From IMG/VR virus record IMGVR_UViG_3300017766_003100, positions 96,001-160,000 of that record: a stretch of DNA of 64,000 nt. One strand, given 5' to 3'. Every line of letters begins with the position of its first letter. Within the stretch, counting starts at the first letter, position 1. The position numbers and the translations under genes are program-made. Shown piece after piece: positions 12,559-61,596 of the stretch. Under the pieces are notes generated by a model. That model worked only from the letters and a program-made list of their open reading frames with translations. It made no database searches and was not told the DNA's origin. Origin of the DNA: a virus (Duplodnaviria; Caudoviricetes).

Positions 12559-12882
12559 ATGGCAAGACAAAACTACAATAGATATAAGGATTTTGTTATT
12601 AATGGGGAACAAACAATTGTACCCTATATAACTCTTCCATCTAAAAGTACGGATAAAAAATATATCTATAAGATTGGTATGTCAAGGATGGATAAGGTAT
12701 CTCAACAATATTATGGTTCTCCTTTATTTGGATGGTTAATTATGCAAGCAAATCCACAATTCAGTGGTAATGAATGGAGCATTCCTGATGGTTCTATATT
12801 GACAATTCCATATCCTTTAGTAGCTTCATTACAAGACTATAAAAATCAATTGGACGAGTATCTTTTCTATTATGGTAGATAA
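12559..12882 (+). CDS. LysM-like baseplate wedge protein (T4 gp53 / P2 gpX-like)
   Basis: RMDKVSQQYYGSPLFGWLIMQANP...IPDGSILTIP pattern; 107 aa; synteny. Confidence 0.8.
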   Translation: MARQNYNRYKDFVINGEQTIVPYITLPSKSTDKKYIYKIGMSRMDKVSQQYYGSPLFGWLIMQANPQFSGNEWSIPDGSILTIPYPLVASLQDYKNQLDEYLFYYGR

Positions 12883-15800: not shown

Positions 15801-18800
15801 CATCAATACTGAATACACCATATTTTGTTAATTCAATTCAAATTGGGCAGAAAAATTTTAGAAATTATGACAAACATCCATATGTAGCTTCAGCCTATTT
15901 GTTGTTGAATAGTTTACCATTAATAACACTTAAAGAAAAATATACAAAATATGAAAATGATAAGACCATTTTTATGGATTATATATTTGCAACATTGAAA
16001 AAATTTGGTGCAATACATAAAGTTCCATATGTTTGGATTCTTAAAATGGGTTCTGTTTGGTATCGATATAAAAAATATGTTGAAGAAAACGTGGATATTT
16101 TAGATGAATGTTGGAAAAGTTTTGATAGTGTTCCAAACTATGACCCCATTACATCTGCAGCAACTAAAACATATAATTTAACTATCAATGGTTCACCAAT
16201 AGATTTAGTTTTGGAAGATAATAACGTAATTGGACTTGAAACTTCTTCATTAATTAATGTTGGATTTTATCCAAAACTAATTAATGACTTTAATGTTTTC
16301 TTGAATGGTTATGAAATAATTCAGTCTAATTCTCAAGTTAATGGGACTTGTAGTGTAACTGGAACAACATTAACTATAACACAAGTTAATTCAAATACAT
16401 TACAACCAGGCTACATTTTAGCTGGAATTAATTTACTTCCAAATACAACAATAATTTCTCAAATTGGGGGAACACCAGGTGGTGTTGGGACTTATGAAAT
16501 AACTCCGACACAAACTGGTTCTACTGCATTATTTTCTGTTACTAATGCAACAAGTGTTGGTTATACAAGTTCAAATATACAAAGTGCTTTAGATTTTTCA
16601 GGTTTATCAATGTATTATGTGAGTAATGCAATTATCAATGAACCTGAAGGTGTTGACCCAAATAATCCTTTGAGAGATTTAAGAATTATACCTTGGAGTT
16701 TATCTGTTGATACAAACAACAAAAACTTTATGTATGTTTTACCATCAAGTGGTAGTTTGTTTAATCAGACCAAAAATGAATGTTTTGATAATAACAACAA
16801 ATTAACTCAAGAGGTAACTGGTAATACATCAGTACATAATGGAGCTGTAAGATTATTTTGGACAGCACCAAACTATGGTTATTTTGATAACACTAGAATC
16901 ACGAAAGTTAAACCTAATGAATATCTTAAAAGAGTTTTAACCGCTGACACATATCAAGATATATTCACTTTAACTGGTTTTGGTGATGAATATTCTAAGA
17001 TTGATGAAATATTTTCAGTATTTGAAAAAAGTGTGTTAGATGGTTTTGAAAAAGAATTTTTGAAATTCTCAAAATCAATATATGATTACGAAGATGATTC
17101 TTCATCTAATTTAACTCTTACAACAAGTCAAACATCAACAACTACAACCACTACAAAATCTTCAAGTGGTCAAGATACAAGTACAGAAATTACATCAGCA
17201 GTTAATGATATTACTAAATCTTTAAAGGAAGTAGGGGATACTATAATTGATAAGAGAAATAGAAATTTCCAACAATTAATGAGAACATTATTATCTGTAC
17301 CAAAAATTACAGGTAATACAGGTTATGAATATGTTAAAAAAGTTCAATCGTCTCAATTTAGTACAATCAAATCAGTCCTATCTGATTTTTTAAATTATGA
17401 TGTAACATTTAAATATGGAAATCCTTCTGCTTTTGATAGAAAATTATTTAATACGTTTTCAACATTACCATTTACAGACCCATATGAATGGGATACATAT
17501 ACAAATTCAACACCAAACGCTCTACCTAAATTAAATGGTACAACTACATTAAGTAGTTCTCAAATAATTTATTCAGGTGCTTGGGCTACCCTACAAACTT
17601 ATGTCGGATTTTCAGAAATACCTGAATTAAAATATAGTAATAATGGTTCATATATTACTGACTTCTTTATTGATTTGAATGTTGCATTTACACCTGAAAA
17701 TATAGAACTTTTTGCTCCGATAATTAAGATTTATGCGACTCAGAAACTAAATCAATTTCAGTCTAATTATATACCACCACAACAACCATTACAACCATCA
17801 CCTGATGTTGTTGCAACAGCTTTCTTAAAGAGTGGTGGGACAGTGAATGTTGAAAAATTAGGTCCTAAATTTAGAACTACATATTATAATAGTGATAATG
17901 TATTATTATTTGAAGGTGCGTATACTTTTACATTTAGTAATGATGTATATACTACTTCAGGTTCGGAGATTTATTATACAGCATTAATTAATGAAACAAT
18001 TATTGGAATATTTGGTAGTACAACAACCAATCCAACTGACCCTCAATATATAACAACATTTGATAGGGTAACACCAACAACATATAATCCTGAACCTAGT
18101 TCCTCAAATAGGAATAATTCATCGGCTTTCTATGAAGCTATGGACAATTATTTAAACAAAATAAATAATTTCCAAAATAAAATTATAGATTCAACAATGA
18201 TTGATGTTAGAAATTCTTTAGATTCTATAACAATCAATGCGGAAGAAAGAGACCAAAGTGTTTTACAAGGTGAACCTCAACCAAAGTTGGAAATTTGGGA
18301 AAGTTTTAAAGCATTAAATGATAAATGGATTGCTGGTGGTGATTTTAAAACAAAAACATTATTTGAGGATGTATTATTATTGGATAGAGCAAGCAGAAAT
18401 ATTGGTGATAAAGTTTTAGTTGACATATATAAACTTAAAGATAGATTACAAACTGTAATTGAGAAAGAAACTAATAAAACAACAATGTTAATTTTTGTTC
18501 AAAACATATTAGTTGAGAACAATTTTGTGGTAATGAATTTACCATCTTATGTTAATTTTTATGGAGTTCAAGACGCAGTTAAAAACCCAAAACCAAAAGT
18601 TGAAGATACTTTGGATTTTGCGAACACTATGTTTGGAACTTTCTTAAATGTTGACTATAGGGAATCATCAGCAAAAATGGTTTGTTTTTATGGTGGTAAA
18701 CCAAGTGAACAATTGGATTTAAAAAACAATGTTGATTATCGTAAAAGAAGTGACGCTTTTGAGCTTAGAAGAGCGAGTGATAACCCATTAGTTGAAAACC

Positions 18801-41218: not shown

Positions 41219-42396
41219 TGCAAGATAGAAATTTTCATATAAGAATTTCACCTGAATTTATCAATGGAGATAAATTTTTTGTTAGGTACAATGCTGGTAA
41301 TTCACCAACTGGTAATACTTTTGACCCTTGTTGTGAAATAACAACCACAACAACCACTCAAAACTATACAGGATTTACAATAGCATATTCAGCATTTACT
41401 GATATACTTTCAGGTGGAACTGATGGTTCATCGTTATTAACTGGATTAACCATACCAATTTTTTTAACCCAAACTGCGGTTGATTTTGGTTACTATTCAG
41501 TATTTGATGGATTTGTTTTACAGAAAGATACAATGTTGAATTTCTTATTTTCAGGTAATTCAATATCACCATATACTTGTTATGTTTACAACACATCCGA
41601 ATTAGAATTTAAAAAATATTTGAGTTTCTCAAATTATTATTTGGATTGGGGAGATGGTACAAATGTTCAAATAATTGGGCCTAATATTCCAATGCCATTT
41701 CAACATACATATCCACCTTCTCCTGCTGAATATACGATAACATTCAGTGGTATGAGTCCTTGGGGTAATAATCTTATTAAGAAAAAGGTATATGTACCAT
41801 TTACTGGAGTCACAATAGATAATCCAAATGGTACGGCATATTTTACTCCACAAGGAGGCAGTTGGTCAGGTTCAGCATTACAATATGATTTTATATATAG
41901 TGGTGATACCACTTGTGAAATTTATCAAGGAGGAAATAATCCTTTCTTATCAGGACCATTAATCATCACGGGATATACAAAGTCCTCAATTGAGGATTTA
42001 AGTCAGTATGGCCCTAAAAGTGGATTATATGGGGGTAAATTCAAGGCAAATCAACAAGTCACAGGTTCTACTGGTGTTGTCGGAATTGTTTATTCAGGTA
42101 ATTCATCATTACCATATACAGCATACACAATTAATGGTATGGACTATTATGATTATGATGATGGTAAAACTATCTTTATAATTTCAGGCGTCACACCAAT
42201 TGATGTTGTATGTTCTGCAATAACCAAACAAGAATTCTTATTAAATGTTGTTGACGAGCCTGAAATTCAATCGGATGTTTACATTGAAAGAGGTAAAAAT
42301 TCGGCATTAGAAAGATTGATGAGACTTGGTGAAGTTGATAATGTTGGGGACTTAACAAAATATGGATACGGATTCTTTAATGTTATAAAAACATAA
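41218..42396 (+). CDS. Putative virion protein with PKD-like domain
   Basis: YYLDWGDGT...FQHTY...YTITFSG PKD signature. Confidence 0.6.
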   Translation: MQDRNFHIRISPEFINGDKFFVRYNAGNSPTGNTFDPCCEITTTTTTQNYTGFTIAYSAFTDILSGGTDGSSLLTGLTIPIFLTQTAVDFGYYSVFDGFVLQKDTMLNFLFSGNSISPYTCYVYNTSELEFKKYLSFSNYYLDWGDGTNVQIIGPNIPMPFQHTYPPSPAEYTITFSGMSPWGNNLIKKKVYVPFTGVTIDNPNGTAYFTPQGGSWSGSALQYDFIYSGDTTCEIYQGGNNPFLSGPLIITGYTKSSIEDLSQYGPKSGLYGGKFKANQQVTGSTGVVGIVYSGNSSLPYTAYTINGMDYYDYDDGKTIFIISGVTPIDVVCSAITKQEFLLNVVDEPEIQSDVYIERGKNSALERLMRLGEVDNVGDLTKYGYGFFNVIKT

Positions 42397-49500: not shown

Positions 49501-50107
49501 GGATGTATCAAATGTTACAAATATGTCTGGTATGTTTAGTAGTACATTAGCGTTCAACCAACCTTTAAGTGGATGGAATGTTTCTAATGCAACTAATATG
49601 AGTAGTATGTTTTCAAATACTGCAGTATTTAATCAAGATATTAGTGGATGGGATGTATCAAATGTTACAAATATGCTTAGTATGTTTGGTAGTGCCTCAG
49701 CATTCAATCAACCTTTAAATGGGTGGAATGTATCGAGTGTAATAACTATGTTTGGTATGTTCCAAAACGCATCATCATTTGACCAACCAATAGACCTTTG
49801 GAATGTTTCTAATGTTACAGTTATGACTGGAATGTTCAATAACGCAATAACCTTTAATCAAGATATTAGTACTTGGAATATATCTAACGTTACTGATATG
49901 ACATCAATGTTAGATAATTGTGGAATGAATCAAAGTAAATATGAGGCATTATTAGTTAATTGGAATTTATTACCATCATTACAACTTAATGTGATTTTTG
50001 GTGTGAGTGGAAGACAATATCAAATAGGAAGTCCTAGTGACATTGCAAGGTCAAATATCATTGGAACATACGCTTGGACATTTATAGGAGACACCGCAGT
50101 ACCATAA
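46514..50107 (+). CDS. Tail fibre/adhesin-like protein: SprB-like repeats, PKD-like domain, C-terminal DUF285 (BspA-like) repeats
   Basis: About 6 G(G)TxPY.. SprB-type units; FDVDWGDG; 10 full 25-aa repeats FNQ(D/P)(I/L)SGW(D/N)VSNVTNMxxMF. Confidence 0.8.
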   Translation: MACSLFVTLTGYTGDCSNTNSGAFGLTIDGTAPDYTIQWINPSYGTIPLGAGVTGYSVNSLSAGTYSLYVVDSCPSGNTYSLLNVYISSGSCVSILDSSNTSCGFDNGSITTATSNLYFASTYYLYELNDGFISSGVTQNTSYEFNSLSAGTYYVIADDGGGCSGKSESCIIKSSSTLNFGLYQINNSACVNSLGSLYVTGLTGTPPYTYSWLPNGETTSFITGLTNGSYSVVVTDGLGCTTSQGAIIGQVPTLGTILLNDVQPSCFSATGETTLYISGGTAPYHIQGSNGEIAITFSTIYTFTGLPAGYFSVVVTDAGLCQSTAYTTLLTPSALSVVTINVTNSNCNNTDGEISVSVFGGAAPYTYTLIDSSTNSQIGIQPVQNAGFIFTSLSSDTYTLLINDSSNLCPYSGTVVVSNNVLFTLTAQTTSTTCDQPNGSVTLGITTGGTAPYRYQINGFDILNVTGLTYSFTNLSSGNYTAIVTDANLCSQTLPFTITNLGSLDFVLSSTNPTFGNNGEISTLITDGTPPFTLNWSSNVNGQTGLTVTALTAGTYVLSITDSLGCTQTRSSILTGFNLVSSFETYNICEGALIDNGSNVRKGPQQMLIEGFTDLTSGDTNCILNQAIFEVEVTLSGVSATTTATTFYTGTSINDFPGDDDYYYAVRSLLLGFSGITDVIIEPVQNQITIATICNPSAEYVDAEIIIGIKIYYDISCEDTAPPVLVPFIFTIDTTKLSAGSSLVDQFQLPTVSGGYYDFDVDWGDGNTDVITTWNDSNTLHTYTATGIYQITINGQFSGFSFNNSGDVAKISSIEQWGILELGDSPGHFYGCVNLDLSGTTDVIDLSTTTTFLQTFRNCTSITTINNAEFWDVSTITDMTETFRNATSFNHPIGSWDVSNVTTTFRMFQTAFDFNQDISGWDVSNLVNAFNMFTSATSFNQPLNSWNVSNITNMSGMFQSALLFNQPLSGWNVSNVTNMSNMFSNASVFNQDISGWDVSNVTNMSGMFSSTLAFNQPLSGWNVSNATNMSSMFSNTAVFNQDISGWDVSNVTNMLSMFGSASAFNQPLNGWNVSSVITMFGMFQNASSFDQPIDLWNVSNVTVMTGMFNNAITFNQDISTWNISNVTDMTSMLDNCGMNQSKYEALLVNWNLLPSLQLNVIFGVSGRQYQIGSPSDIARSNIIGTYAWTFIGDTAVP
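49079..49909 (+). repeat. Tandem 75-nt (25-aa) DUF285-type repeats
   Basis: One degenerate plus 10 full units; 49404-49538 and 49554-49688 are near-identical at DNA level. Confidence 0.92.
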
Positions 50108-50743: not shown

Positions 50744-53700
50744 TTAGAAATCAAATTTCACTACAAATTGTTGAATACCCGTTCTTGGATAAGGTGATTG
50801 TAGCTTAGAAACAATCATAAGTGTTTTATCAGAATCGTAAAGACCTATTTCACTTATATGAACTTTTTTGGTATTATCCCAAGTTGGATTTGATGATGCT
50901 AAAAATTCAGATTGGCCTAAATTTATTTTATATCTCATCTCATAAATTGTTGCTTGAATATCAGTTTCAATGTTACCATAAAAATAATATTCATCACCAA
51001 AATTAAGATTTGTTGTAGTACCTGTTGGCAAGTGAATATAATCAGTTAAGACATATGTATCGGCATTATCATATAAATCTTGAGTAATAACAAAAGTATT
51101 ACCAGTTAACCCTGATTGGGTTAAGAAACCATTTATTGTTGAACCACTTAATTGGTCTGTAAAATCAATAATTTTCCATTCTGTTGGTTCTGGTCTACCA
51201 TTACCATCAATTTTTTGACATATAATTTCAAACTTATTTGCAATAAATCCGTTTTGTACATTACAGAATTCAGAACAAATTGTACTTGCGGTAACAGCTG
51301 AATATGTCGGACAAGTTCCAGTATAACTTCCATAAGTAGTTTCCTCTGAGACTTGAACAATTGCAGAATCTAAAGAACCATCCAAAGTTATAGCACAACC
51401 ACTATATGTAATTCCTGAAGTTATAATTGTTTCATCTGAAATAATAAAACTACAATCAACGACTTTAATTGTTGCACTATTTGCAGTTGTACTTGCCGAG
51501 TAACTACTACAAGTAATATCTACACAACTTTCAAATAAACTTGTTGTTAAACCAGTAACAGGAACAACATCAGGTGTCCAAGTTCCAATTGGAATATCAT
51601 TTTCAGTTAATCCTGTTAAAATGGCTATTCTAGTGTCTGCTGAATAAATCTCCCAAGTAGAATTATAATAAACCAATCTTTCAGCTAAATCAAAATTTGA
51701 TAAATAAAGATTTGTTGACCCACTCAAAGTATTATAATAAGGTATTGTTAAACAAGATTCATTTTCAACACATAATGTGACACATAATAAAGGATTATAA
51801 TTACATTCAGTATAACCTGTTATACCTCCTTCAAAATCAATTGTAAAGTCACCTATTAATCCACCATTTGTAAAATTAATTATTAGGTCAGTACTATTAT
51901 TGTTGGTTCTAATTACCCAATCATTACCATCATAAAAAATATTAGATATCAGTCCCTCGCCAAGAAAACTTCTAAATATTGGGTAACCATTCAAATTTTG
52001 GTCTGTGTTAATAAATGGATAAGCACTATAAGCGTTAGGGGATGTGTCTGGTTGTGGTAAAAACCAAAATGTGAAACCAGAATACCAACAAGGAGTAATA
52101 GATGTGTTAGCCGTAGCTAAACATGAAAATTCATCACCGAATCTTACACTAACATTTTGTGAAGATATTGGATTACAAGAAACATTAGGACCTTGAATAC
52201 TTTGATAGTAATTACAATGTAATGAATTTGTAAATCCTAAATCGTTTGATAATCTGTATGTCACATAAAAATATTCTGTATTACCAGTTAAAATGCCCTC
52301 AACTGAATTATTGTCTAGACCACAAATATTTGGTGTTATTAATGAAACTTTTGGTGCTGGTAAAGTCCAATTTCGATTTGACTTATATGACATTGCCGCG
52401 AGTAATTCTTCGTCATCAATAACAATTATTTTCAAGTCAGGAAATACTTTACCAACTCTATTTGGAATATTAGGCGTTGGTGCATTAGGATTTGGATTGT
52501 CATCCCACAAATGGAAATATCTTATACCAGGGTCATTCATATCAACATTCTTTGTTGATTTTAAATAATTAACTTGGAATAATTCCAAATCTTCAAAACC
52601 TGGTGGGTCAACCCAAAATGTTTGTCCTAAACAACAATTTGGATTTTTGTGCCACATAATCCAAGGTAAATGTATTTTGAAGTTTCTACCTTGACCAGTG
52701 GTGTCATTTGTTGTATCGTCAAATGGTTGCATTGCAAACTTTTCACCATAGAATAAATCAATTGTCTGATTTGTATAATGTATAATACCAATAGCTTTTT
52801 GGTCTTCAGGTAACACATTTACAACTTCATCAAATGAATTAAAATAAAAAGTTGAGCTAGTATCAGTTTGTCCACTACTTGAAGCATAACCCAAATATTC
52901 TTTAGTACCTAAGTAATTAACTGAACCAAATTTTGTATAATCATTTGAAACTGATGAGTCTAATCCTGCAGGACTTTCAGACCAAGGAATATTCATATTC
53001 CAAATCTTAACATCAAATTGGTCTGTATAACAAACAGATTCAAAGTTTATTACATTATCATTCCAATGTCTGAATGGAGTTATACTATCGTATATTTCAG
53101 TCATTTTTGGAGGGTATATAATAGTTCTTGCATAACAATCATTACCCAAATATGAGAAGTCAGGAGTTGGTCTATCTAATGTAATTGTATTCAAACAAAC
53201 TCCAACAATTCTATATGTTAAAATTGGGAAACAACTTTGTAAAGTCACTACACAATCTGGTGGTGCTGGTTGTGGACAAGCATTACTTGGTGTTGGTGTT
53301 GGACAAAACGTTGCACTAGGTGTTGGAGTTGGTGTAGGACTATCACAAGGAAATAAATTTGTGCTTGTGGGTGTTGGGGTTTGTGACACTGGGAACGATG
53401 GTGTCATTGATGGTGTTGGCGACACTGTTGGAGTTGGTGTAGGTGTTGGAAGATTTGAACAATTACAATCAACCAAACCAGTACCATCATAATAAATTGT
53501 TATTATATCACCAACGGCAAATCCTCTAACAACACTTGGATTACAACTATTAAAAACTAAATCAATTGTATTAGTACCATTCAATGTGTTCATCTGAACA
53601 ACATAGTTTGAATTAATAGTGTATAAATTATTTGTTAATGCACTCCAAGTATAATAGTTGGTATCATCTATTGGAGTTCCACTGAAAAACCCTCTTTCTG

Positions 53701-54022
53701 CGGCAGTATTATAGACCGAATCAATAATAGAATCCATAAAAGGAACACCATATGTGTTACCCCCAATGTTATCTACATAGATTGGGTATTTTACATTTTC
53801 TTTATTTGATTGTGGTGAACCTGCAATATTTTGAGCATTGAAACTTGGTTCGAAGACAAAGTAATTTGTCGGATTAAAATTAGGTATAACATTATAACTT
53901 ACTTCACTATCACCAATTTGGAAATAAGAAATATTGAAGTTACCTTCAGATAGTTTTTGTCTACCAGCATCTGTTAACCTTGTGTTTATTAAACCTGATG
54001 TATTTTTAAGAATATATCCCAT
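50744..54022 (-). CDS. Baseplate/tail-fibre attachment protein with split DUF3751-like termini and Cys/Pro/Thr-rich inserts
   Basis: N-terminal RLTDAGRQKLSEG..FQIGDSE and C-terminal ISEIGLYDSDKTLMIVSKLQSPYPR; internal (PT)n tract. Confidence 0.6.
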   Translation of the reverse strand: MGYILKNTSGLINTRLTDAGRQKLSEGNFNISYFQIGDSEVSYNVIPNFNPTNYFVFEPSFNAQNIAGSPQSNKENVKYPIYVDNIGGNTYGVPFMDSIIDSVYNTAAERGFFSGTPIDDTNYYTWSALTNNLYTINSNYVVQMNTLNGTNTIDLVFNSCNPSVVRGFAVGDIITIYYDGTGLVDCNCSNLPTPTPTPTVSPTPSMTPSFPVSQTPTPTSTNLFPCDSPTPTPTPSATFCPTPTPSNACPQPAPPDCVVTLQSCFPILTYRIVGVCLNTITLDRPTPDFSYLGNDCYARTIIYPPKMTEIYDSITPFRHWNDNVINFESVCYTDQFDVKIWNMNIPWSESPAGLDSSVSNDYTKFGSVNYLGTKEYLGYASSSGQTDTSSTFYFNSFDEVVNVLPEDQKAIGIIHYTNQTIDLFYGEKFAMQPFDDTTNDTTGQGRNFKIHLPWIMWHKNPNCCLGQTFWVDPPGFEDLELFQVNYLKSTKNVDMNDPGIRYFHLWDDNPNPNAPTPNIPNRVGKVFPDLKIIVIDDEELLAAMSYKSNRNWTLPAPKVSLITPNICGLDNNSVEGILTGNTEYFYVTYRLSNDLGFTNSLHCNYYQSIQGPNVSCNPISSQNVSVRFGDEFSCLATANTSITPCWYSGFTFWFLPQPDTSPNAYSAYPFINTDQNLNGYPIFRSFLGEGLISNIFYDGNDWVIRTNNNSTDLIINFTNGGLIGDFTIDFEGGITGYTECNYNPLLCVTLCVENESCLTIPYYNTLSGSTNLYLSNFDLAERLVYYNSTWEIYSADTRIAILTGLTENDIPIGTWTPDVVPVTGLTTSLFESCVDITCSSYSASTTANSATIKVVDCSFIISDETIITSGITYSGCAITLDGSLDSAIVQVSEETTYGSYTGTCPTYSAVTASTICSEFCNVQNGFIANKFEIICQKIDGNGRPEPTEWKIIDFTDQLSGSTINGFLTQSGLTGNTFVITQDLYDNADTYVLTDYIHLPTGTTTNLNFGDEYYFYGNIETDIQATIYEMRYKINLGQSEFLASSNPTWDNTKKVHISEIGLYDSDKTLMIVSKLQSPYPRTGIQQFVVKFDF
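53258..53452 (-). repeat. (Pro-Thr)n mucin-like tract with interspersed Cys
   Basis: LPTPTPTPTVSPTPSMTPS...CDSPTPTPTPSATFCPTPTPSNACPQPAPP. Confidence 0.9.
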
Positions 54023-54026
54023 ACAG

Positions 54027-54034
54027 TATAAATA
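54027..54034 (-). promoter_or_regulatory. TATTTATA motif on minus strand
   Basis: TATAAATA on + strand, 4 nt upstream of minus-strand start 54022. Confidence 0.6.
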
Positions 54035-54790: not shown

Positions 54791-56284
54791 TTATATTCCA
54801 CAAATACCATTTATTGTTGTTGTACAATAGATAAAATAAATTGTATTGGTTAGTGGTGGTCCTGATGAAAGATTTGCTGTTAAAGTAATACTATAATTTG
54901 TTGGAGAACAAGGTCCTTGCCATCCTTGACTATTCATCAAACCAGGACCACCAATTGTATTATTTATTGTTGCCCCACCAATCCAAAGTGAAGAACTATT
55001 AATACTTAATTGAGATGGACTTATGTTTGTTACATCTAAATAAACATCTAATGTAGACATATTAATACACAATATATCAAAACTTGTAACTGAAACACCT
55101 ACAGGTAAATTATACGTATTCCAAACAAAATTTGGTATAAGATTTTGACCACCACAAGAAGAACCTCTATACTGATTTGGTATATTAGAACCCCAAGTTT
55201 GCCACCATCCTTCATTAATTATAAAGTTAAGAGTTGGTACACTACATATATTTCTGATTGCCGTTATTGTATAACTTGGGTACAAATTAGCATTAGATAC
55301 AAACCAATTATTCAATGGTACATTACTTGCTGTGAATGTATTTGGTGGTGTTGGTAATGGATATGTTGAAACAATATCAATAGGTGGATTAAATTGAGTT
55401 ACCAACTGACTTGATGGTGAACCAGATAAAATCCAATATTGATTCCAATAAATTAATTCATTTCCTGATGGGGATTTCCAAACTGGATGAATAACTCCAT
55501 TATTAGTTTCAAAATAGGCAATAATAAATGGAATTTGTATTAATGTTTTAGGTGCTTGTATTGTTATACACATATTATATTCCATAAACGATGGGTTTGA
55601 TGGAAGTTGTGCTAACGTGGTTGTTGTGGTTGTTGTAGGTTCAACAATTGTACAATTTATTAATAAACTAAAATCACCAAATTGGTCAGTTATCTGAACA
55701 AAATAAGTTCCTGATTCTAAATTTGTGAAGTTAGTACTTGATGAATTTAATGGTGGTATTGACCTTACAGTATTACCTTCATCATCTAATAATATCACTT
55801 GATATGGTGGAGTACCACCAGTAATTTTAACACCCAAACTTCCGTAACCACCACTAACTATTGGTGACGTTGGTTCACATATTGCACCCATAGGATATAT
55901 GGTTAAGACACCACATTCATTTGATTGTAGATAGTTTAGTTGGTCATATTTTCTTGGTTCAGGACAAGTTATTGCGGCAGTTTCAAAAACATCCATCACA
56001 GCATCCAAATTAGCCCAAGTTGTACCAGTTGGACATTGTAATTCACCTAAAATATAACTTACTAAATTATTATCGTAAAAAATTTCCCATTGTGAATCTA
56101 CTAAATCATAAACTATTTTAATTTCTAAATTTTGTCCACAACAAGGGTCATACCCAACATAGGATTTTCTACCATTAACATAACCACCTGGTTTAAGTGT
56201 TGTCTTAAATACACCACCAAAAGATTCAGAGGTTGCTGATAATGATATACAACTACAAGGAGAGACAGTTACAGATGTGGACAT
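54791..56284 (-). CDS. Modular fibre-like protein: Cys module, SprB-like repeat, Thr run, C-terminal PEBP/YbhB-like domain
   Basis: KITGGTPPYQV...FTNLESGTYFVQITD; PTTTTTTL; CGGQNLIPNFVW...SFDIL...GWQGPCSP..YSITLTA. Confidence 0.55.
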   Translation of the reverse strand: MSTSVTVSPCSCISLSATSESFGGVFKTTLKPGGYVNGRKSYVGYDPCCGQNLEIKIVYDLVDSQWEIFYDNNLVSYILGELQCPTGTTWANLDAVMDVFETAAITCPEPRKYDQLNYLQSNECGVLTIYPMGAICEPTSPIVSGGYGSLGVKITGGTPPYQVILLDDEGNTVRSIPPLNSSSTNFTNLESGTYFVQITDQFGDFSLLINCTIVEPTTTTTTTLAQLPSNPSFMEYNMCITIQAPKTLIQIPFIIAYFETNNGVIHPVWKSPSGNELIYWNQYWILSGSPSSQLVTQFNPPIDIVSTYPLPTPPNTFTASNVPLNNWFVSNANLYPSYTITAIRNICSVPTLNFIINEGWWQTWGSNIPNQYRGSSCGGQNLIPNFVWNTYNLPVGVSVTSFDILCINMSTLDVYLDVTNISPSQLSINSSSLWIGGATINNTIGGPGLMNSQGWQGPCSPTNYSITLTANLSSGPPLTNTIYFIYCTTTINGICGI

Positions 56285-56332: not shown

Positions 56333-57313
56333 TTAAGAATGTTTTTCTATTATACTTTTCATAACCTCTATGTATTTAATTGTTGAACTATTCTTATCGA
56401 TGTAATCGAAGTAATTAATATTTTCTTTTAATTTTTCTAATGGATTTACGTTTATAAATTCACCTTTATAAAATTTTGACCTTTTTAAATCATCGGTAAC
56501 TCCAGCCATATGTAAAATAGGATGTTTTTCATAAGTTGAAATAGTATCAGTTGCCCAAGAAAAACTTAAATCCTCAACTATTTTTGTTTCGTGGCTAGTT
56601 AACCAAAGATTCCATAAAACCGCCCACATATCAGCTGTCCACATTTGTATTTCTCCCGATGGGACACTATGTCTTTGATTAAATTCAAAAACATTTTTAT
56701 AAAGTAATTGACAATCATTAAAAACTTTTTCCCAAAATGTGTAATCGGTATTTTTGATTAAATATTGAGCACCACCTGAGTTCTTATTATTCTGTTTTAT
56801 TGTATCAACAGAAATACCAATAACATCAGCCATTAATTGAATTAAATGTCCTTTTTGTAGTGATGGGTGTATAGATTCATATCTTTCACAACAAGTCATA
56901 ATATAATCATAATTGATATAACTTAAGGTATCAGATAGATACACAATATCATCTTGTAACAATTTGTTGAAATCAGGGAGTTCTCTAAAAATGATATCAG
57001 AATCGTGGTAAAAGTAACATTTCCCTAAATCAGGATATTCTTTCAACCATCTTGATAAGGCCATTGGTCTTAAACTTGGAATATATTTTTTATCTTTTCT
57101 ATCATCCAAATAATGATGTACGTTAATACCAATCTCTTTTAATTTAATTGACTCATCTGAAGGAAATGTATTTCCATTAACCATAACAAACAAAACGTGA
57201 ATATTTTCAGGTTTAATTCCTTTCTCAATAAAGTTTGTTGTATATATTTTTGTTTGCCAATGGAAGTAAGGGATGTCAGGATGAGCTGATACAAATACCA
57301 AATTATTGTCCAT
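56333..57313 (-). CDS. GT-A glycosyltransferase resembling peptidyl-serine alpha-galactosyltransferase / Hyp O-arabinosyltransferase (GT96/GT95 type)
   Basis: YFHWQT, YIPSLRPMALSRWL, HDSDIIFR (DxD), SGGAQY, WTADMW, PILHMAG in the same order as the SGT1/HPAT motifs as I recall them. Confidence 0.7.
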   Translation of the reverse strand: MDNNLVFVSAHPDIPYFHWQTKIYTTNFIEKGIKPENIHVLFVMVNGNTFPSDESIKLKEIGINVHHYLDDRKDKKYIPSLRPMALSRWLKEYPDLGKCYFYHDSDIIFRELPDFNKLLQDDIVYLSDTLSYINYDYIMTCCERYESIHPSLQKGHLIQLMADVIGISVDTIKQNNKNSGGAQYLIKNTDYTFWEKVFNDCQLLYKNVFEFNQRHSVPSGEIQMWTADMWAVLWNLWLTSHETKIVEDLSFSWATDTISTYEKHPILHMAGVTDDLKRSKFYKGEFINVNPLEKLKENINYFDYIDKNSSTIKYIEVMKSIIEKHS

Positions 57314-57349: not shown

Positions 57350-58567
57350 TTATAAATAATATAGAATATCCGCAGTTCCATTAAATGTTGCATTAGCACC
57401 TAATGGTGTAATACATAACCACATTTCATCTAAAGTACCATTAACATTAGAACCAACTCTAATTTGGTTATCATCAAGTTTCGTTGTAGTTAATGCCGAA
57501 GTACCCGCTTGACCAATCAAAGAAGTCATAATGTGACCAGGGGATGTTATTGTATGTGTATTACCAGTACCCAAACTATATTGGAATGGTGAATTTGGAA
57601 TATCTACCCAAGTTGGGGTATAAGATAAAGTTGGATTGAATTCCATTGTTAATAAATAATTGTCATTAGATGTATTAAGAATACTAATTGCATCGTATTG
57701 TGATGAAACCGATGTATAAGACTCCTTCAATCTATAACCAATATAAGGATATTTTTCACCAGAAGTAGCTAATGTTGTTGTTGCTGTATATGGTACTGAA
57801 ACTGTTGAATATAAACCATTTAAAGCACCTTCAGAAGCTGTTTGAGAACATATCATATCAAAATAACCAGAACCAACACCAACTTGTCTTATTTCATATC
57901 TTATTGGTTGATTAGGTGAGGCCATATAAACTGTTGATATATTATTTGCAGCAGTATAATCAATAAAATAAATTGTTTGACCTGATAATACCATTCCAAA
58001 TCTTAGTCTACCAACACCTAACCATTGATAATCTACAGTCATCAAATTGGTTTTAGTCCAATCAAAATTGTTGGGGTCAAATTGAGTATTAGTCCAAACA
58101 GAAGTATCTGCACTATAAGTACAAGAACCGCTCAAATATATGTTAAAAGTTATTGCACTTGTAACACCATTACTTTCCAAAAAGAAACCATCAAAAACTG
58201 AATTATATGGTGTTCCTGTCGTTGATTGAAACATACCAACCCTTTTAATAACATTAGTTTCAATGGCAAAGTTATTAAAACTAGCTTCAAATAATTGACT
58301 TTTACCTGGTTGATAAATTGGATGTGTTTTTGATTGACGTATAACTAAATCGTTATTAGCTGAAGTAGACATTCTAACTCTTGCATATTGTTGGTCAAAA
58401 ATTGATGTAGCAGTTCCAGCTGTCATTTCATTGACTTGAAGTGGATTTTTATCATAAACGTGTTTGATATCTAAAAGATTAGTTACTGCTGCAGTTCTTA
58501 ATCTACCAAACGCATCTAAGTTTGGGCTATCTGAGTATTTTATCGAATTATTAAAAATGTATGCCAT
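57350..58567 (-). CDS. Phage virion protein of the 'DAFGRLR' type, probably lectin-like beta-sandwich
   Basis: SPNLDAFGRLR, YQPGKSQL, DYQWLGVGRLRFG, NQPIRYEI motifs recognised from phage structural proteins; fold is inference. Confidence 0.55.
   Translation of the reverse strand: MAYIFNNSIKYSDSPNLDAFGRLRTAAVTNLLDIKHVYDKNPLQVNEMTAGTATSIFDQQYARVRMSTSANNDLVIRQSKTHPIYQPGKSQLFEASFNNFAIETNVIKRVGMFQSTTGTPYNSVFDGFFLESNGVTSAITFNIYLSGSCTYSADTSVWTNTQFDPNNFDWTKTNLMTVDYQWLGVGRLRFGMVLSGQTIYFIDYTAANNISTVYMASPNQPIRYEIRQVGVGSGYFDMICSQTASEGALNGLYSTVSVPYTATTTLATSGEKYPYIGYRLKESYTSVSSQYDAISILNTSNDNYLLTMEFNPTLSYTPTWVDIPNSPFQYSLGTGNTHTITSPGHIMTSLIGQAGTSALTTTKLDDNQIRVGSNVNGTLDEMWLCITPLGANATFNGTADILYYL
57351..57358 (-). 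promoter_or_regulatory. TATTTATA motif on minus strand upstream of glycosyltransferase
   Basis: 37 nt upstream of start 57313; overlaps the end of the preceding gene. Confidence 0.55.
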
Positions 58568-59226: not shown

Positions 59227-59234
59227 TATAAATA
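59227..59234 (-). promoter_or_regulatory. TATTTATA motif on minus strand
   Basis: 13 nt upstream of start 59213. Confidence 0.6.
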
Positions 59235-59553: not shown

Positions 59554-59561
59554 TATAAATA
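59554..59561 (-). promoter_or_regulatory. TATTTATA motif on minus strand
   Basis: 18 nt upstream of start 59535. Confidence 0.6.
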
Positions 59562-59568
59562 TTACGTA

Positions 59569-61596
59569 TTATAAACTACCCAAACATGTGGCACAATTAT
59601 CAAAGAAAGTATTTCCAGTTGATGGGAAAAAACTTCCTGAGATGTATGTAAATGTTGAACCTAAAGGTAAAGTTGGATAAGTTGATGAGTAGTACATAAA
59701 CTCCCAACAATAATCATTGGTGATAGTTTTAAATATTGTTCCTGGTGTAAATGTAGGAATAGCCAAAGTTTGAATAATATATTCTGTTGGATTTCCACAT
59801 TGTCTGAAAACATAATAACCTATGGCCATAGATGGTGTTGGTGATGGTGTATTTGTTGGTGTTAATGTTGGTGTAACGGTTGGTGTTGGAGTAGGTGAAA
59901 CATCAGGTGTACATAATGAACATTCACCTAAATTTGAATAACCTAAAGGTCCATCAATTAAACTTATTTCATCAATACCAATAACATCCAAATTATAACC
60001 CAAGAAAGAAATACATTTTGAATTTCCATTAACATTTCCTTTAAAAATCATAAATTGGTCAATAGTACCACCTGAAGGTAATGGTATTGAATTGGTTGTA
60101 TAATACATTTCACCAGTATAACAATCTTGGAATTGTTTACTATTCGGACATTTTATTTCTCCATTTACAGTATTAAATGTTACATTACCTAATATGTTTA
60201 TTGGCCTTGTTACATCAGGTGTTGGTGTAGGTGTTGGTGTTAATGTTGCCGTTGGTGTTGGTGTATATCCAGTTATTGTTACATCTATAGCTACATCACC
60301 ACAAGGATTACTAGGTGTTGGTGTTGGTGTACTTGTTGGAGAAGTTGTTATCGTTGGTGTAGGTGTTGGTGTTGGAATATATTCACAATCAAAAACTGCG
60401 GTAAAGTCTAATACGGAACAATTCACAGTTGGCGTTGGAGTAGGTGTAGGACAAGCTCCACTAAATACATATTCATCACATAAATCAGGACAAGTTGAAA
60501 TACAAGGATAAGGTCCTTCTAATAAACAAGTACCATCCAATACTGATGACATACACCAAGTTCCTCCAGTTGTGAAATAAATAACATTACCAGTGTTTAC
60601 CCCTAACCAATATGGTTGGGAATTATGTATACCAGCGTATTTGTAATTGTCATCATAACCCAATCCTGTATCACTAATACAATAATTAACAATATCGGTT
60701 TTATCTATTAGAATACAATATGGTGTACCACTACAAGTATATAATGAATAACCATCAGGACAAGTATATCCAGTTCCAGTTGTTGCCCCACTTGAAGATA
60801 AAGGAACGTCTTGACCAATAAAACTTAATGTTGTAAACAAAGTATCCGCGCTTAATTGTGAATAACTAGTATAACCACTAAGAGTTGAAACAGAACCACT
60901 ATATATTTCAGCAACAAAACTCGCAGGACCTGAATCATTCAGGTTCTCCATTTCAATTATGTTCAAACCTGATGAGAAAGTATATGGGAAAACACTTAAA
61001 AATAGTGTTCCATAACCTTGAGCGATTGATGTACCTGGAAATGTTGATATTGTATCATAAATTAAATTACCATTTATTTTAAATCTAAAATAGTCATCAC
61101 CTGAAATCGCGATAAAATATGTACCTGAAACTGGTATGTCTAAACAATAGGAAAATCCCACATATTCATCTTGTGGGTCAGGATTGTTAGTTGTCCATAT
61201 ACCCGCATTATTTAATCTACCTGTAATTGTAGTTCCAGTACCCCAAAGAGAATTTCTTAAACTAGTCGGACCATAGTATGGTGATGTAGTAAATCCTTGA
61301 CCACCTGCTTGAATATTTAAAATTCTTCCACTATTATCTACTAAAAATTGAGTATTAAAAAGTAATGTACCATTCTCAGTGAATGCTGATGTTGTTGACC
61401 CAGTATTTGTTATTGGGAATGAAAGATTTGTAATGTCTTCATAAAAAATAACACCATAAGCATTATATGCTGTATTAACACTACCTGTTGTTGCAGTATA
61501 AAAAAATGAACCACCACTTGTTGCTGCGGTTACAGTATATATACAAGCATCAGAATCGATGGTTGGGGTATAACCCGATGGACAAGGACAACTCAT
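59569..61596 (-). CDS. Cys-rich modular virion protein: CPxGY units, PA14-like domain, (PT)n tracts
   Basis: CPCPSGY and CPDGY flank GTYFIAISGDDYFRFKINGNLIYD...GLNIIEMENLNDSGPA; about 26 Cys; four PT tracts. Confidence 0.6.
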   Translation of the reverse strand: MSCPCPSGYTPTIDSDACIYTVTAATSGGSFFYTATTGSVNTAYNAYGVIFYEDITNLSFPITNTGSTTSAFTENGTLLFNTQFLVDNSGRILNIQAGGQGFTTSPYYGPTSLRNSLWGTGTTITGRLNNAGIWTTNNPDPQDEYVGFSYCLDIPVSGTYFIAISGDDYFRFKINGNLIYDTISTFPGTSIAQGYGTLFLSVFPYTFSSGLNIIEMENLNDSGPASFVAEIYSGSVSTLSGYTSYSQLSADTLFTTLSFIGQDVPLSSSGATTGTGYTCPDGYSLYTCSGTPYCILIDKTDIVNYCISDTGLGYDDNYKYAGIHNSQPYWLGVNTGNVIYFTTGGTWCMSSVLDGTCLLEGPYPCISTCPDLCDEYVFSGACPTPTPTPTVNCSVLDFTAVFDCEYIPTPTPTPTITTSPTSTPTPTPSNPCGDVAIDVTITGYTPTPTATLTPTPTPTPDVTRPINILGNVTFNTVNGEIKCPNSKQFQDCYTGEMYYTTNSIPLPSGGTIDQFMIFKGNVNGNSKCISFLGYNLDVIGIDEISLIDGPLGYSNLGECSLCTPDVSPTPTPTVTPTLTPTNTPSPTPSMAIGYYVFRQCGNPTEYIIQTLAIPTFTPGTIFKTITNDYCWEFMYYSSTYPTLPLGSTFTYISGSFFPSTGNTFFDNCATCLGSL
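59831..60450 (-). repeat. Four (Pro-Thr)n mucin-like tracts (about 59831-59911, 60218-60265, 60311-60375, 60427-60450)
   Basis: GGTGTTGGTGT-type runs on + strand encoding PTPTPTPT on - strand. Confidence 0.9.

What the first reader, a model, noticed from the sequence alone, without database searches (positions are those of the whole stretch)
56333..57313. Plant-type protein O-glycosyltransferase homolog inside a cluster of mucin-like virion genes: candidate phage virion O-glycosylation system
Seen: a 326-aa GT-A enzyme with motifs YFHWQT / YIPSLRPMALSRWL / HDSDIIFR / SGGAQY / WTADMW / PILHMAG. It has its own TATTTATA late motif and is flanked on the same strand by virion genes carrying (PT)n and Thr-run tracts. 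Established (recalled): plant and algal SGT1/SERGT1 (GT96) and HPAT (GT95) show the same ordered motifs (YFDWQT, YPAINKP..V..WL, LDADMIIR, VGG, WISEMY, P.LMHY) and glycosylate Ser/Hyp in Pro-rich extensins. Virion glycosylation is known for some mycobacteriophages and giant viruses, but with other GT families as far as I know. Inference: this phage O-glycosylates Pro/Thr-rich stalks of its own fibres, producing stiffened, protease-resistant or camouflaged bottle-brush appendages. It may also point to a bacterial/phage origin of GT95/96.
Basis: partly seen in the sequence, partly recalled or inferred. Interest (0 to 1): 0.85.

Follow-up and report, generated by a model that had tools for sequence, protein, structure and literature searches.

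The report
Phage sugar-transferase paired with poly-threonine tags
A large phage encodes a soluble sugar-transferring enzyme, distantly related to the plant enzymes that glycosylate cell-wall proteins. In many unrelated phages this enzyme appears and disappears together with poly-threonine runs on capsid, tail and fibre proteins, so it most likely sugar-coats the virus particle. That has been shown experimentally only for mycobacteriophages, which use other enzymes.

Summary
The ORF at 56333-57313 (-) is real. It encodes a 326-aa soluble GT-A glycosyltransferase (DxD = D104/D106, invariant H268) of PHROG 4417, a family annotated 'unknown function'. A very confident model (pLDDT 97.5) is closest, outside its own family, to plant and algal SGT1 and HPAT (TM 0.6-0.72). 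A profile-profile match to Pfam-HPAT-positive bacterial proteins (E 2e-4) puts all motifs in register, but the Pfam HPAT model itself does not detect the protein. It is a remote sister family, not a GT95/GT96 member.

The functional evidence is comparative. In Enterococcus-type prophages, poly-Thr C-terminal tails on both the major tail and major capsid proteins occur in 12/12 loci with the enzyme and 0/15 (0/12 for capsid) without. In bacterial genomes, stand-alone copies have a poly-Thr ORF immediately upstream in 21/32 loci, against 2/40 for fused forms. In the window's own jumbo-phage clade, Thr runs of 6 or more occur in 52/55 enzyme-positive loci and 0/16 enzyme-negative loci, whereas (PT)n repeats occur in both. 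So poly-Thr, not (PT)n, is the likely acceptor.

No experiment or paper on this family was found. This scan has reached the same reading before on other DNA (at least 23 genomes).

The parts
56333..57313 (-). Gene for a 326-aa soluble GT-A glycosyltransferase (PHROG 4417; HPAT/SGT1-like superfamily)
   Evidence: ORF and translation; phrog_4417 E 1.5e-67; AF2 model pLDDT 97.5; fold matches; no hydrophobic segment, maximum hydropathy 0.94
56996..57004 (-). Codons for D104-S105-D106, the DxD metal and nucleotide-sugar motif
   Evidence: D106 invariant and D104 conserved in at least 90% of 75 family members; aligned to the DPD motif of Pfam-HPAT-positive proteins by hhalign
56510..56512 (-). Codon for H268, the invariant His of the PILHMAG motif; probable third metal ligand, as in GT8-type retaining enzymes (inferred)
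   Evidence: Invariant column; aligned to the invariant His of the PIIHYCQ motif in HPAT-positive proteins
57351..57358 (-). TATTTATA motif 37 nt upstream of the GT start, overlapping the stop codon of the upstream gene; possible promoter element, unproven
   Evidence: Sequence; 14 copies in the window against 17.4 expected, so not enriched overall; 7 of 14 lie 4-40 nt upstream of a same-strand ORF start (and the ORF lists)
54791..56284 (-). 497-aa protein encoded directly downstream of the GT; best candidate acceptor in the window
   Evidence: Carries a Thr7 run (residues 217-223); weak Hoc-like head-decoration hit, phrog_2973 E 0.0011; in 54 of 75 relatives the ORF immediately downstream of the GT has a Ser/Thr/Pro tract
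55616..55636 (-). Thr7 run (seven consecutive Thr codons), the proposed O-glycosylation tag
   Evidence: Thr runs of 6 or more co-vary with the GT in the clade
57350..58567 (-). 405-aa virion structural protein encoded directly upstream of the GT (no Thr run)
   Evidence: phrog_1645 'virion structural protein' E 7.8e-48
10649..10666 (+). Thr6 run in the 1684-aa ORF 7502-12556; further candidate tag
17138..17155 (+). Thr6 run, within a longer Ser/Thr tract, in the 2341-aa ORF 12872-19897; further candidate tag
41341..41358 (+). Thr6 run in the 392-aa ORF 41218-42396; further candidate tag
50744..54022 (-). 1092-aa fibre-like protein with (PT)n linkers; a neighbour, but its PT repeats do not depend on the GT
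   Evidence: orthologs in GT-negative relatives keep the PT repeats
59569..61596 (-). 675-aa Cys-rich protein with a PA14-like domain and five (PT)n tracts; a neighbour, PT repeats not shown to be acceptors

Best explanation
The gene encodes a cytoplasmic, metal-dependent, probably retaining GT-A glycosyltransferase. During late infection it transfers a sugar from a host nucleotide-sugar directly onto threonine hydroxyls in poly-Thr runs of the phage's own structural proteins. In this phage the likely sites are the Thr7 run of the 497-aa protein encoded next door and the Thr6 runs in three other large proteins. In small phages of Gram-positive bacteria they are the poly-Thr C-terminal tails of the major capsid and tail-tube proteins. 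The result is a glycan-decorated virion. Shown here: the fold, the catalytic motifs, the remote homology to HPAT and SGT1, and the co-variation of enzyme and poly-Thr. Inferred: that the enzyme acts on protein, that Thr is the acceptor, that it is the initiating enzyme, and the retaining mechanism. Unknown: the sugar and the benefit to the phage.
For: (1) Enzyme: GT-A model with pLDDT 97.5. DxD and His are invariant. Nearest solved folds are retaining GT-A enzymes, several of which act on proteins or protein-linked glycans: glycogenin Z 15.1, LgtC 14.6, Skp1 alpha-GalT 14.1, UGGT 13.7, GlyE 13.1, PBCV-1 capsid GT A64R 11.2. Nearest characterised relatives are the peptide O-glycosyltransferases SGT1 and HPAT. 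Bacterial HPAT-positive relatives are fused to PqqD, a peptide-recognition domain.
(2) Context: the gene lies inside structural operons directly after a major virion subunit gene. It follows the major tail protein in phiFL1A, Bacchae, FA88, SA2 and TPWB06 (directly, or after only a short overlapping poly-Thr ORF in the last two), and the 'major structural protein' orf13 in phage 1706. It follows the major head protein in VPE25 and R3.3.
(3) Co-variation in one prophage family: poly-Thr tail on the tail protein in 12/12 GT-positive and 0/15 GT-negative loci. The capsid protein, whose gene lies about 1.4 kb upstream of the tail-protein gene (about 2 kb from the GT) with several genes between, has the tail in 12/12 and 0/12. 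Three independent contrasts all go the same way.
(4) Bacterial genomes: stand-alone GT loci have a Thr-rich ORF on the same strand in 25/32, against 4/40 for fused long forms (p 4e-9). It is immediately upstream in 21/32 against 2/40 (p 5e-8).
(5) The window's own clade: Thr runs of 6 or more in 52/55 GT-positive and 0/16 GT-negative loci. Of 5 independent contrasts, 3-4 go the same way (4 in most pairings), none the opposite way, and 1-2 are unchanged. Pooling with (3) gives 7 to 0 at best, two-sided sign test about 0.016 (my arithmetic).
(6) Five complete Gram-positive phage genomes carrying this gene have no GT2, GT1 or GT8 gene, so this is the only recognisable phage GT there.
(7) Reverse test: 5 of 50 loci chosen only for a Thr run of 8 or more contain this GT.
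(8) In phage 1706 the GT (orf14) is annotated 'unknown' while its neighbours are annotated as structural proteins, which fits an enzyme rather than a virion component.
Against: There is no biochemical evidence: no glycan has been shown on any of these virions, and no paper on this family was found. After correcting for relatedness, each single clade gives only 3-5 independent contrasts (p 0.125-0.25 each), so the raw Fisher values are inflated. Seven of 32 stand-alone bacterial loci, some on short contigs, show no Thr-rich ORF. In VPE25 the gene immediately upstream (major head protein) has no tract; only the tail protein 1.8 kb away does. In the window the Thr runs are short (6-7) and internal, not the C-terminal tails seen in small phages. 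The jumbo relatives carry 5-8 other GT2 genes, so this enzyme's step within any pathway is uncertain there. GT-negative jumbo contigs are incomplete (32-73%).
Confidence: 0.75

Rival explanations
1. One reading: the enzyme O-glycosylates the Pro/Thr-rich (PT)n stalks of the fibres (extensin-like), either instead of or in addition to the poly-Thr runs.
For: PT tracts are abundant in same-strand neighbours. The plant relatives HPAT and SGT1 act on Pro-rich extensin motifs (established knowledge). GT-positive loci nearly all have PT repeats too (52/55).
Against: PT repeats are just as frequent in relatives without the enzyme (16/16 loci, 2.98 against 3.08 tracts per 10 kb; Fisher p 1.0), including five contigs of 93-215 kb with no copy anywhere. 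In Gram-positive phages the tracts linked to the enzyme are nearly pure Thr/Ser, with few Pro.
Confidence: 0.12
2. The enzyme belongs to a virion-glycosylation pathway but extends a glycan started by another (host or phage) enzyme, rather than attaching the first sugar to Thr.
For: Jumbo relatives carry 5-8 GT2 genes. Homologs occur fused to PF11397 GlcNAc-transferase and O-FucT domains, suggesting multi-step assembly. Several structural neighbours (UGGT, Skp1 alpha-GalT, LARGE1) extend glycans.
Against: In five complete small phage genomes it is the only recognisable GT. Its nearest characterised relatives (SGT1, HPAT) are initiating peptide transferases.
Confidence: 0.07
3. The enzyme modifies the host cell envelope (teichoic acid, LPS or capsule) to block superinfection or change serotype, as in classical phage conversion.
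For: Many phage GTs do this (reviewed in PMC12619734). GT8-like enzymes include LPS glycosyltransferases.
Against: The gene sits in late structural operons, not lysogeny modules. The protein is soluble with no membrane segment. The gene also occurs in large phages without an annotated integrase (VPE25, SA2, Bacchae). This rival gives no reason for perfect co-variation with poly-Thr tails on two separate virion proteins.
Confidence: 0.03
4. The enzyme glycosylates hypermodified bases in phage DNA to evade restriction.
For: DNA glycosylation by diverse phage GTs is known (10.1101/2023.12.21.572611; PMC13326640). A DNA methyltransferase lies in the window at 23674-24681.
Against: The enzyme is present in 36-39 kb temperate phages whose annotation (phiFL1A) shows no hydroxymethylase or TET-like gene. 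Its position is in structural modules. It co-varies with protein tails. Its nearest relatives act on peptides.
Confidence: 0.02

Closest known systems
Mycobacteriophage virion glycosylation (Che8, Corndog, Myrna; Freeman et al. 2023, Cell Host Microbe 31:1216, cited in PMC12619734 and PMC10877033; the paper itself is not held)
   Same: [quoted passage not shown] This is exactly where the poly-Thr tails sit in the Gram-positive phages that carry this family.
   Different: The hosts are different (Bacillota and Bacteroidota rather than Actinobacteria). The system here is a single small GT-A enzyme of an unannotated family (PHROG 4417). The tag is a simple poly-Thr run. In the jumbo phage of this window the runs are internal to large proteins. 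Nothing is shown experimentally here.
Plant and algal hydroxyproline O-arabinosyltransferases (HPAT, RDN, PLENTY; CAZy GT95; Pfam PF23452)
   Same: GT-A fold; ordered motifs (Y-x-W-Q, Y-x4-K/R-P, DxD, W-x2-D/E-M, His motif) in register; TM 0.57-0.72; hhalign E 1.9e-4 to Pfam-HPAT-positive proteins. They are peptide-directed O-glycosylation enzymes acting on repetitive low-complexity tracts.
   Different: Only 12-14% identity, and the Pfam HPAT model does not detect the protein. The phage enzyme is soluble rather than Golgi-anchored. The inferred acceptor is Thr, not hydroxyproline. The donor is unknown.
Peptidyl-serine alpha-galactosyltransferase SGT1/SERGT1 (CAZy GT96)
   Same: Best Swiss-Prot structural match: Arabidopsis Q8VYF9 residues 394-699, TM 0.64, E 5.5e-11. 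It adds a sugar directly to a hydroxy-amino acid in a repetitive tract.
   Different: 12% identity. SGT1 is a large (802 aa) membrane protein of the secretory pathway with a Ser acceptor in a Pro-rich context. Sequence-level membership could not be tested here.
GT8-type retaining GT-A enzymes (glycogenin, LgtC, GlyE of the pneumococcal serine-rich-repeat protein pathway, UGGT GT24 domain)
   Same: The closest solved structures (Z 13-15). They share the DxD plus distal His arrangement. Several act on proteins (glycogenin, GlyE).
   Different: No Pfam GT8 match. TM is lower than to HPAT and SGT1 (0.42-0.58 against 0.6-0.72).
Chlorovirus PBCV-1 A64R (capsid-glycan glycosyltransferase)
   Same: A virus-encoded cytoplasmic GT-A enzyme that glycosylates the virus's own major capsid protein; structural match Z 11.2.
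   Different: A eukaryotic giant virus; atypical N-linked glycans; a different GT family; a weaker structural match.

Membership tests
PHROG 4417 (phage protein family, function unknown) | Full-length match to the family HMM | tested here: met
   E 1.5e-67, residues 7-320 against profile positions 3-290 of 293
GT-A fold nucleotide-sugar glycosyltransferases | Rossmann-like GT-A fold | tested here: met
   AF2 model pLDDT 97.5; Z 10-15 to dozens of solved GT-A enzymes
GT-A fold nucleotide-sugar glycosyltransferases | Conserved DxD motif after a beta strand | tested here: met
   D104-S-D106 following strand E99-102; D106 invariant, D104 at least 90%
CAZy GT95 / Pfam PF23452 (HPAT) | Detection by the family's sequence model above its cut-off | tested here: not met
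   No hit for this protein even at E <= 1; only 2 of 75 family members reach E 0.09; no hit in three relatives' genomes
CAZy GT95 / Pfam PF23452 (HPAT) | Remote homology: profile-profile match with catalytic motifs in register | tested here: met
   hhalign A1 against 24 Pfam-HPAT-positive proteins: E 1.9e-4, 263 columns, probability 47%; structure TM 0.71-0.72 to clusters that are 55-99% HPAT
CAZy GT95 / Pfam PF23452 (HPAT) | Type II membrane anchor / secretory-pathway location | tested here: not met
   The first strand starts at residue 6; maximum 19-aa hydropathy is 0.94, so no transmembrane segment
CAZy GT95 / Pfam PF23452 (HPAT) | Hydroxyproline acceptor and UDP-L-arabinofuranose donor | not testable with these tools
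   Needs enzyme assays; the comparative data point to Thr, not Hyp
CAZy GT96 (SGT1/SERGT1) | Structural similarity to the catalytic domain | tested here: met
   Top Swiss-Prot hit, TM 0.64 by query, rmsd 6.0, 12% identity
CAZy GT96 (SGT1/SERGT1) | Sequence-level family membership | not testable with these tools
CAZy GT8 / Pfam PF01501 | Detection by the family's sequence model | tested here: not met
   No hit; five carrier phage genomes give no PF01501 hit at all, which includes this gene
Phage virion protein glycosylation system (mycobacteriophage type) | Phage-encoded glycosyltransferase expressed with structural genes | tested here: met
   The gene lies within same-strand structural blocks in the window and in 10 other phage lineages
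Phage virion protein glycosylation system (mycobacteriophage type) | Ser/Thr-rich extensions on capsid and tail-tube subunits that depend on the enzyme | tested here: met
   Met for the Gram-positive relatives: 12/12 against 0/15 (tail) and 0/12 (capsid). In the window itself the runs are internal Thr6-7 runs in large proteins, which co-vary with the GT in the clade
Phage virion protein glycosylation system (mycobacteriophage type) | Glycan demonstrated on virion proteins | not testable with these tools
   Needs mass spectrometry or glycoprotein staining; no published data found

The most novel reading that the evidence does not exclude
A single small soluble enzyme plus a bare poly-threonine run forms a portable, self-contained 'glyco-tag' system. 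Phages of Bacillota, Bacteroidota and other phyla have repeatedly moved it between capsid, tail-tube, portal, decoration and fibre proteins. This prokaryotic and viral family, together with the PqqD-fused bacterial HPAT-like enzymes, represents the cytoplasmic peptide-glycosylating stock from which the plant and algal extensin glycosyltransferases GT95 and GT96 descend.
Probability: 0.3. Interest if true: 0.88.

Novelty: new variant of a known kind. Interest (0 to 1): 0.78.

Why it matters
Virion glycosylation by phage-encoded enzymes has been shown experimentally only in actinobacteriophages, where it affects antibody recognition. If this family does what the comparative data indicate, sugar-coated virions are common among phages of enterococci, staphylococci, lactic acid bacteria, clostridia and Bacteroidota, including phages considered for therapy and phages that trouble dairy fermentations. 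That would bear on immunogenicity, stability, mucus interaction and the interpretation of cryo-EM maps. A one-enzyme, one-tag system acting in the bacterial cytoplasm would also be a simple tool for site-directed O-glycosylation of recombinant proteins. The homology to HPAT and SGT1 offers a soluble, easily expressed model for plant enzymes that have no solved structure.

Tried and rejected
1. Pfam, NCBIfam and PDB sequence searches with the single protein and with the profile gave nothing meaningful. Bromodomain, TAL-effector and MinE hits are chance matches to a short low-complexity stretch.
2. The window's own genome is not held. I used complete relatives from IMG/VR instead.
3. Sugar-nucleotide genes in the relatives: one epimerase in one of three genomes and no nucleotidyltransferase. 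This gives no clue to the sugar.
4. Enterococcus phage phiEf11 has published SDS-PAGE anomalies for its tail and head proteins (PMC5221750). It has neither the enzyme nor poly-Thr tails in its structural module (first 20 kb checked), so those data are irrelevant.
5. Ten literature searches found no paper on this family, nor on poly-Thr tails as glycosylation tags outside mycobacteriophages. The key paper (Freeman 2023) is not held. PMC10747895 and PMC12403621 were checked and are irrelevant.
6. TATTTATA as a late promoter: not enriched in the window.
7. The upstream 405-aa protein is not the conserved partner. It has no similarity to the upstream protein of Chryseobacterium phage MA9V-3, and a BLAST-detectable homolog is adjacent in only 6 of 73 relatives.
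8. Modelling the 497-aa candidate acceptor was abandoned because only three orthologs of similar length were available.
9. Complex prediction was not used. Enzyme with substrate tail is the kind of pair the tool's own description says is rarely informative.
10. The Pfam HPAT family in Myxococcota was positive in only 1 of 401 genomes. That one protein served as the bridge for the profile comparison.
Full report
OBSERVATION. The ORF at 56333-57313 on the minus strand is real and encodes 326 residues. They fall on the invariant or nearly invariant columns of a 75-member alignment of the family (A1: Y77, D106, Y132, Y137, G181, W225, W230, F251, H268, G271 and K283 invariant; D104, W19, Q20, P83, G180 and Q183 at 90% or more). 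Neither Pfam nor NCBIfam recognises the protein. PHROGs places it in phrog_4417, 'unknown function' (E 1.5e-67). The family is large: 2292 clusters at 90% identity and 826 representatives at 50% identity. It is annotated 'hypothetical' in all 77 phage records that carry it. The window is a ~30% GC piece of a jumbo phage; the protein's own contig is 295 kb. It carries T4-type baseplate genes, replication genes, and SprB/DUF285-type fibre modules that suggest a Bacteroidota host.

WHAT THE PROTEIN IS. An AlphaFold2 model built on A1 is very confident (pLDDT 97.5, pTM 0.93). Against solved structures it matches retaining GT-A enzymes: glycogenin Z 15.1, LgtC 14.6, WbbM 14.1, Skp1 alpha-galactosyltransferase 14.1, UGGT 13.7, LARGE1 13.5, pneumococcal GlyE 13.1 and PBCV-1 A64R 11.2 (Foldseek agrees). 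Among predicted structures of reviewed proteins, the best hit is Arabidopsis peptidyl-serine alpha-galactosyltransferase (TM 0.64). Next come the hydroxyproline O-arabinosyltransferases HPAT1-3, RDN1 and PLENTY (TM 0.57-0.63, rmsd 5-6 A). GT8 galactinol synthases align worse (TM 0.44-0.49, rmsd 9-12 A). AlphaFold cluster representatives and the ESM Atlas give the same order. First come members of the protein's own family (TM 0.82-0.98), then HPAT-annotated algal and bacterial clusters (TM 0.58-0.72), then GT8 (0.58 or lower). The protein-language-model search likewise finds a bacterial cluster, 58% Pfam-HPAT-positive, at score 0.96.

To test homology by sequence I fetched a Pfam-HPAT-positive protein from a Myxococcales genome, collected its relatives (all precomputed as PF23452, most also PF05402 PqqD) and aligned 24 of them (A2). 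hhalign of A1 against A2 gives E 1.9e-4 over 263 columns. The Y-x-W-Q, Y-x4-(K/R)-P, DxD, W-x2-D-M and His motifs are all in register.

It is remote, though. Identity is 12-14%, and the Pfam HPAT model does not detect this protein even at E 1. The protein is also soluble (no hydrophobic segment), unlike the membrane-anchored plant enzymes. I file it as a sister family inside an HPAT/SGT1-like superfamily, not as a member of GT95 or GT96.

WHAT IT ACTS ON. The decisive evidence is comparative. In unrelated phages the gene follows a major virion subunit gene, directly or after only a short overlapping poly-Thr ORF:
- phiFL1A: the major tail protein.
- VPE25: the major head protein.
- Herelleviridae phage Bacchae: a small 'major tail protein'.
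- Clostridium phage FA88: the tail-tube protein.
- Lacticaseibacillus phage R3.3: the major head protein.
- SA2 and TPWB06: the major tail protein (with a short overlapping poly-Thr ORF between).
- Lactococcus phage 1706: the 'major structural protein' orf13.

In every one of these lineages, virion proteins carry nearly pure Thr/Ser runs, mostly as C-terminal tails:
- phiFL1A: capsid gp45 and tail gp50.
- R3.3: capsid and tail.
- 1706: capsid/protease orf10 (Thr9) and orf13 (Thr10).
- FA88: portal, a small head protein and the tail tube.
- VPE25: the tail protein.
- SA2 and TPWB06: the tail protein, plus an overlapping ORF with a 46-55-residue Thr tract, plus the prohead protease.
- Bacchae: three small ORFs around the gene.
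- Chryseobacterium phage MA9V-3: a 69-residue tract, and a 29-residue tract in the gene just upstream.

TEST 1, a matched family. I fetched 27 IMG/VR loci by the core of the phiFL1A tail protein alone. Twelve have the enzyme inserted between the tail-protein and chaperone genes, and fifteen do not. The tail protein ends in poly-Thr in 12/12 and 0/15 respectively (Fisher 5.8e-8). The tail and the enzyme gene are adjacent, so a single indel could in principle carry both. I therefore examined the capsid gene, which lies about 1.4 kb upstream of the tail-protein gene (about 2 kb from the enzyme gene) with several genes between. Its product, 75-100% identical in the core, ends in poly-Thr in 12/12 enzyme-positive loci and 0/12 enzyme-negative loci. 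On the tail-protein core tree the enzyme state changes 4 times, and 3 well-supported independent contrasts all go the same way.

TEST 2, cellular genomes. The family occurs in 138 places in 185,579 species genomes. Stand-alone copies (400 aa or less, mostly in prophage-like structural contexts in Bacillota and Bacteroidota) have a Thr-rich ORF on the same strand in 25/32 loci, and immediately upstream in 21/32. Long fused forms have them in 4/40 and 2/40 (p 4e-9 and 5e-8). These fused forms are about 570-590 aa in Chitinophaga, Pedobacter, Mucilaginibacter and related Bacteroidota, and about 1000 aa or more in Actinomycetota; the Atlas shows a Glyco_transf_7C partner domain in a 581-aa Bacteroidota form. 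The fused forms thus also supply a base rate for such tracts in arbitrary bacterial neighbourhoods. The stand-alone copies fall into 13 clusters at 60% identity, 8 of which show the adjacency.

TEST 3, the window's own clade. In 78 of 80 loci found through the enzyme there are Ser/Thr/Pro tracts nearby. In 54 of 75 the ORF immediately downstream has one. That is 'always together' and proves little. I therefore fetched 79 loci through the ortholog of the neighbouring 1092-aa fibre-like protein. Sixty contain the enzyme and nineteen do not. Five of the latter contigs (93-215 kb) have no copy anywhere, although they are 32-73% complete. Among loci of at least 15 kb, Thr runs of 6 or more occur in 52/55 enzyme-positive and 0/16 enzyme-negative loci. 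(PT)3-or-longer repeats occur in 52/55 and 16/16, at the same density.

With relatedness taken into account, the enzyme state changes 5 times on the fibre-protein tree (low-complexity tracts masked). Of 5 independent contrasts, 3-4 go the same way (4 in most random pairings), none goes the opposite way and 1-2 are unchanged (p 0.125 alone). Pooled with Test 1, that is 7 to 0 at best, about p 0.016 (my arithmetic). So poly-Thr tracks the enzyme and the PT stalks do not.

In the window, Thr runs of 6 or more are found in four proteins. One is a Thr7 run in the 497-aa protein encoded directly downstream of the enzyme. By composition about 0.01 such runs would be expected (my estimate).

TEST 4, reverse. 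Of 80 loci taken from IMG/VR only because they contain eight or more consecutive Thr codons, 50 have an ORF with a Thr run of 8 or more. Five of these (mean locus 8.3 kb) contain this enzyme. That is far above any plausible background, but it also shows that most poly-Thr tracts go with other enzymes or none.

WHICH STEP. Five complete genomes of Gram-positive phages carrying the gene (38-89 kb) contain no GT2, GT1/4 or GT8 gene. There the enzyme is the only recognisable phage glycosyltransferase, so it is most simply the initiating one. The jumbo relatives have 5-8 GT2 genes elsewhere, and some homologs are fused to PF11397 GlcNAc-transferase, O-fucosyltransferase and F5/8-type-C lectin domains. 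Longer glycans are therefore possible in some lineages. The DxD-plus-His arrangement and the GT8/HPAT/SGT1 neighbourhood argue for a retaining mechanism using a UDP-sugar. That is inference. Neither the donor nor the benefit to the phage can be read from sequence.

RIVALS. DNA glycosylation and host-envelope conversion do not explain a soluble enzyme placed in structural operons, whose presence predicts poly-Thr tails on two separately encoded virion proteins. Glycan extension rather than initiation remains possible. (PT)n glycosylation may occur in addition, but has no comparative support.

WHAT IS KNOWN. The only experimental precedent I could find is mycobacteriophage virion glycosylation on the C-termini of capsid and tail-tube subunits (Freeman et al. 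2023, as cited in PMC12619734 and PMC10877033; the paper itself is not held). A paper on large aquatic 'moraphages' of Bacteroidota lists four core 'putative glycosyltransferases' with only generic comments (PMC12619734). No held paper mentions HPAT-like enzymes in phages, or poly-Thr tails as tags. Earlier notes of this scan report the same pairing on at least 23 other genomes. I saw most of them only after my own tests, and count none of them as evidence.

VERDICT. The enzyme identification and its plant-like kinship are supported. The virion-glycosylation reading is well supported by comparative genomics, but with poly-Thr rather than (PT)n as the tag. Nothing has been shown biochemically. 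It is a new variant of a known kind of system.

Noticed in passing
L112:19652-19924 (Staphylococcus phage SA2) and L115:11672-11926 (Arcanobacterium phage TPWB06): An ORF overlapping the 3' end of the major tail protein gene encodes a 46-55-residue, almost pure poly-Thr tract. It looks like a programmed-frameshift extension that would give a long-tagged minor form of the tail-tube protein, directly before the GT gene.
   Followed up: no
Proteins P0274-P0393; locus L317:1006-2139 (-): Bacterial Pfam-HPAT-positive glycosyltransferases (Pseudomonadota, Myxococcota) are fused to a PqqD domain, the peptide-recognition element of RiPP pathways. They are candidate peptide glycosyltransferases of unknown natural products.
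   Followed up: partly
Loci L241-L314 (genome contigs), e.g. L241, L249, L253: Chitinophaga, Pedobacter, Mucilaginibacter and related Bacteroidota carry forms of about 570-590 aa; the Atlas shows a Glyco_transf_7C partner domain in a 581-aa Bacteroidota form. Actinomycetota carry forms of about 1000 aa or more. None has a poly-Thr neighbour, so the cellular forms probably have another acceptor.
   Followed up: partly
Protein P0153 (1369 aa): A four-module protein: O-fucosyltransferase + PF11397 GlcNAc-transferase + F5/8 type C lectin domain + this GT domain. It suggests an assembly line for a multi-sugar O-glycan.
   Followed up: no
window 57351-57358, 54027-54034, 59227-59234, 59554-59561 (-); 4037, 5571, 7481 (+): TATTTATA is not enriched overall, but 7 of its 14 copies lie 4-40 nt upstream of a same-strand ORF start. 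It may be part of a promoter or simply AT-rich intergenic sequence. It is the reverse complement of the T4 late consensus TATAAATA, not that consensus itself.
   Followed up: partly
Relatives G002:218992-220652 and 271701-280704; G003:17358-19120 and 89677-93227: Complete jumbo relatives (291 and 318 kb) carry 5-8 GT2-family genes in clusters far from the structural block. Their targets are unknown.
   Followed up: no
L235 (CAYGYN010000024.1, 5.3 kb contig binned as a Woesearchaeota MAG): This holds a 54%-identical copy of the GT, the closest hit in the cellular-genome collection. It is probably a phage contig binned into an archaeal MAG by mistake.
   Followed up: no
L315:5477-7537 and 8247-8984 (Lactococcus phage 1706); L114, L256, L265, L271: The poly-Thr tails end in short conserved caps that are shared by the capsid and tail proteins of the same phage: His-His(-Asp) in phage 1706, and Ser-His-Ala in Lacticaseibacillus phages and prophages. 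This suggests the tag is copied as a unit, or that the cap matters for recognition.
   Followed up: no
window 59569-61596 (-) and neighbours: The 675-aa protein combines a PA14-like domain (E 3e-4), many Cys residues and five PT linkers. The 1197-aa ORF 46514-50107 combines SprB repeats with a DUF285 repeat domain (E 5e-105). These fibre modules are typical of Bacteroidota surface proteins.
   Followed up: no
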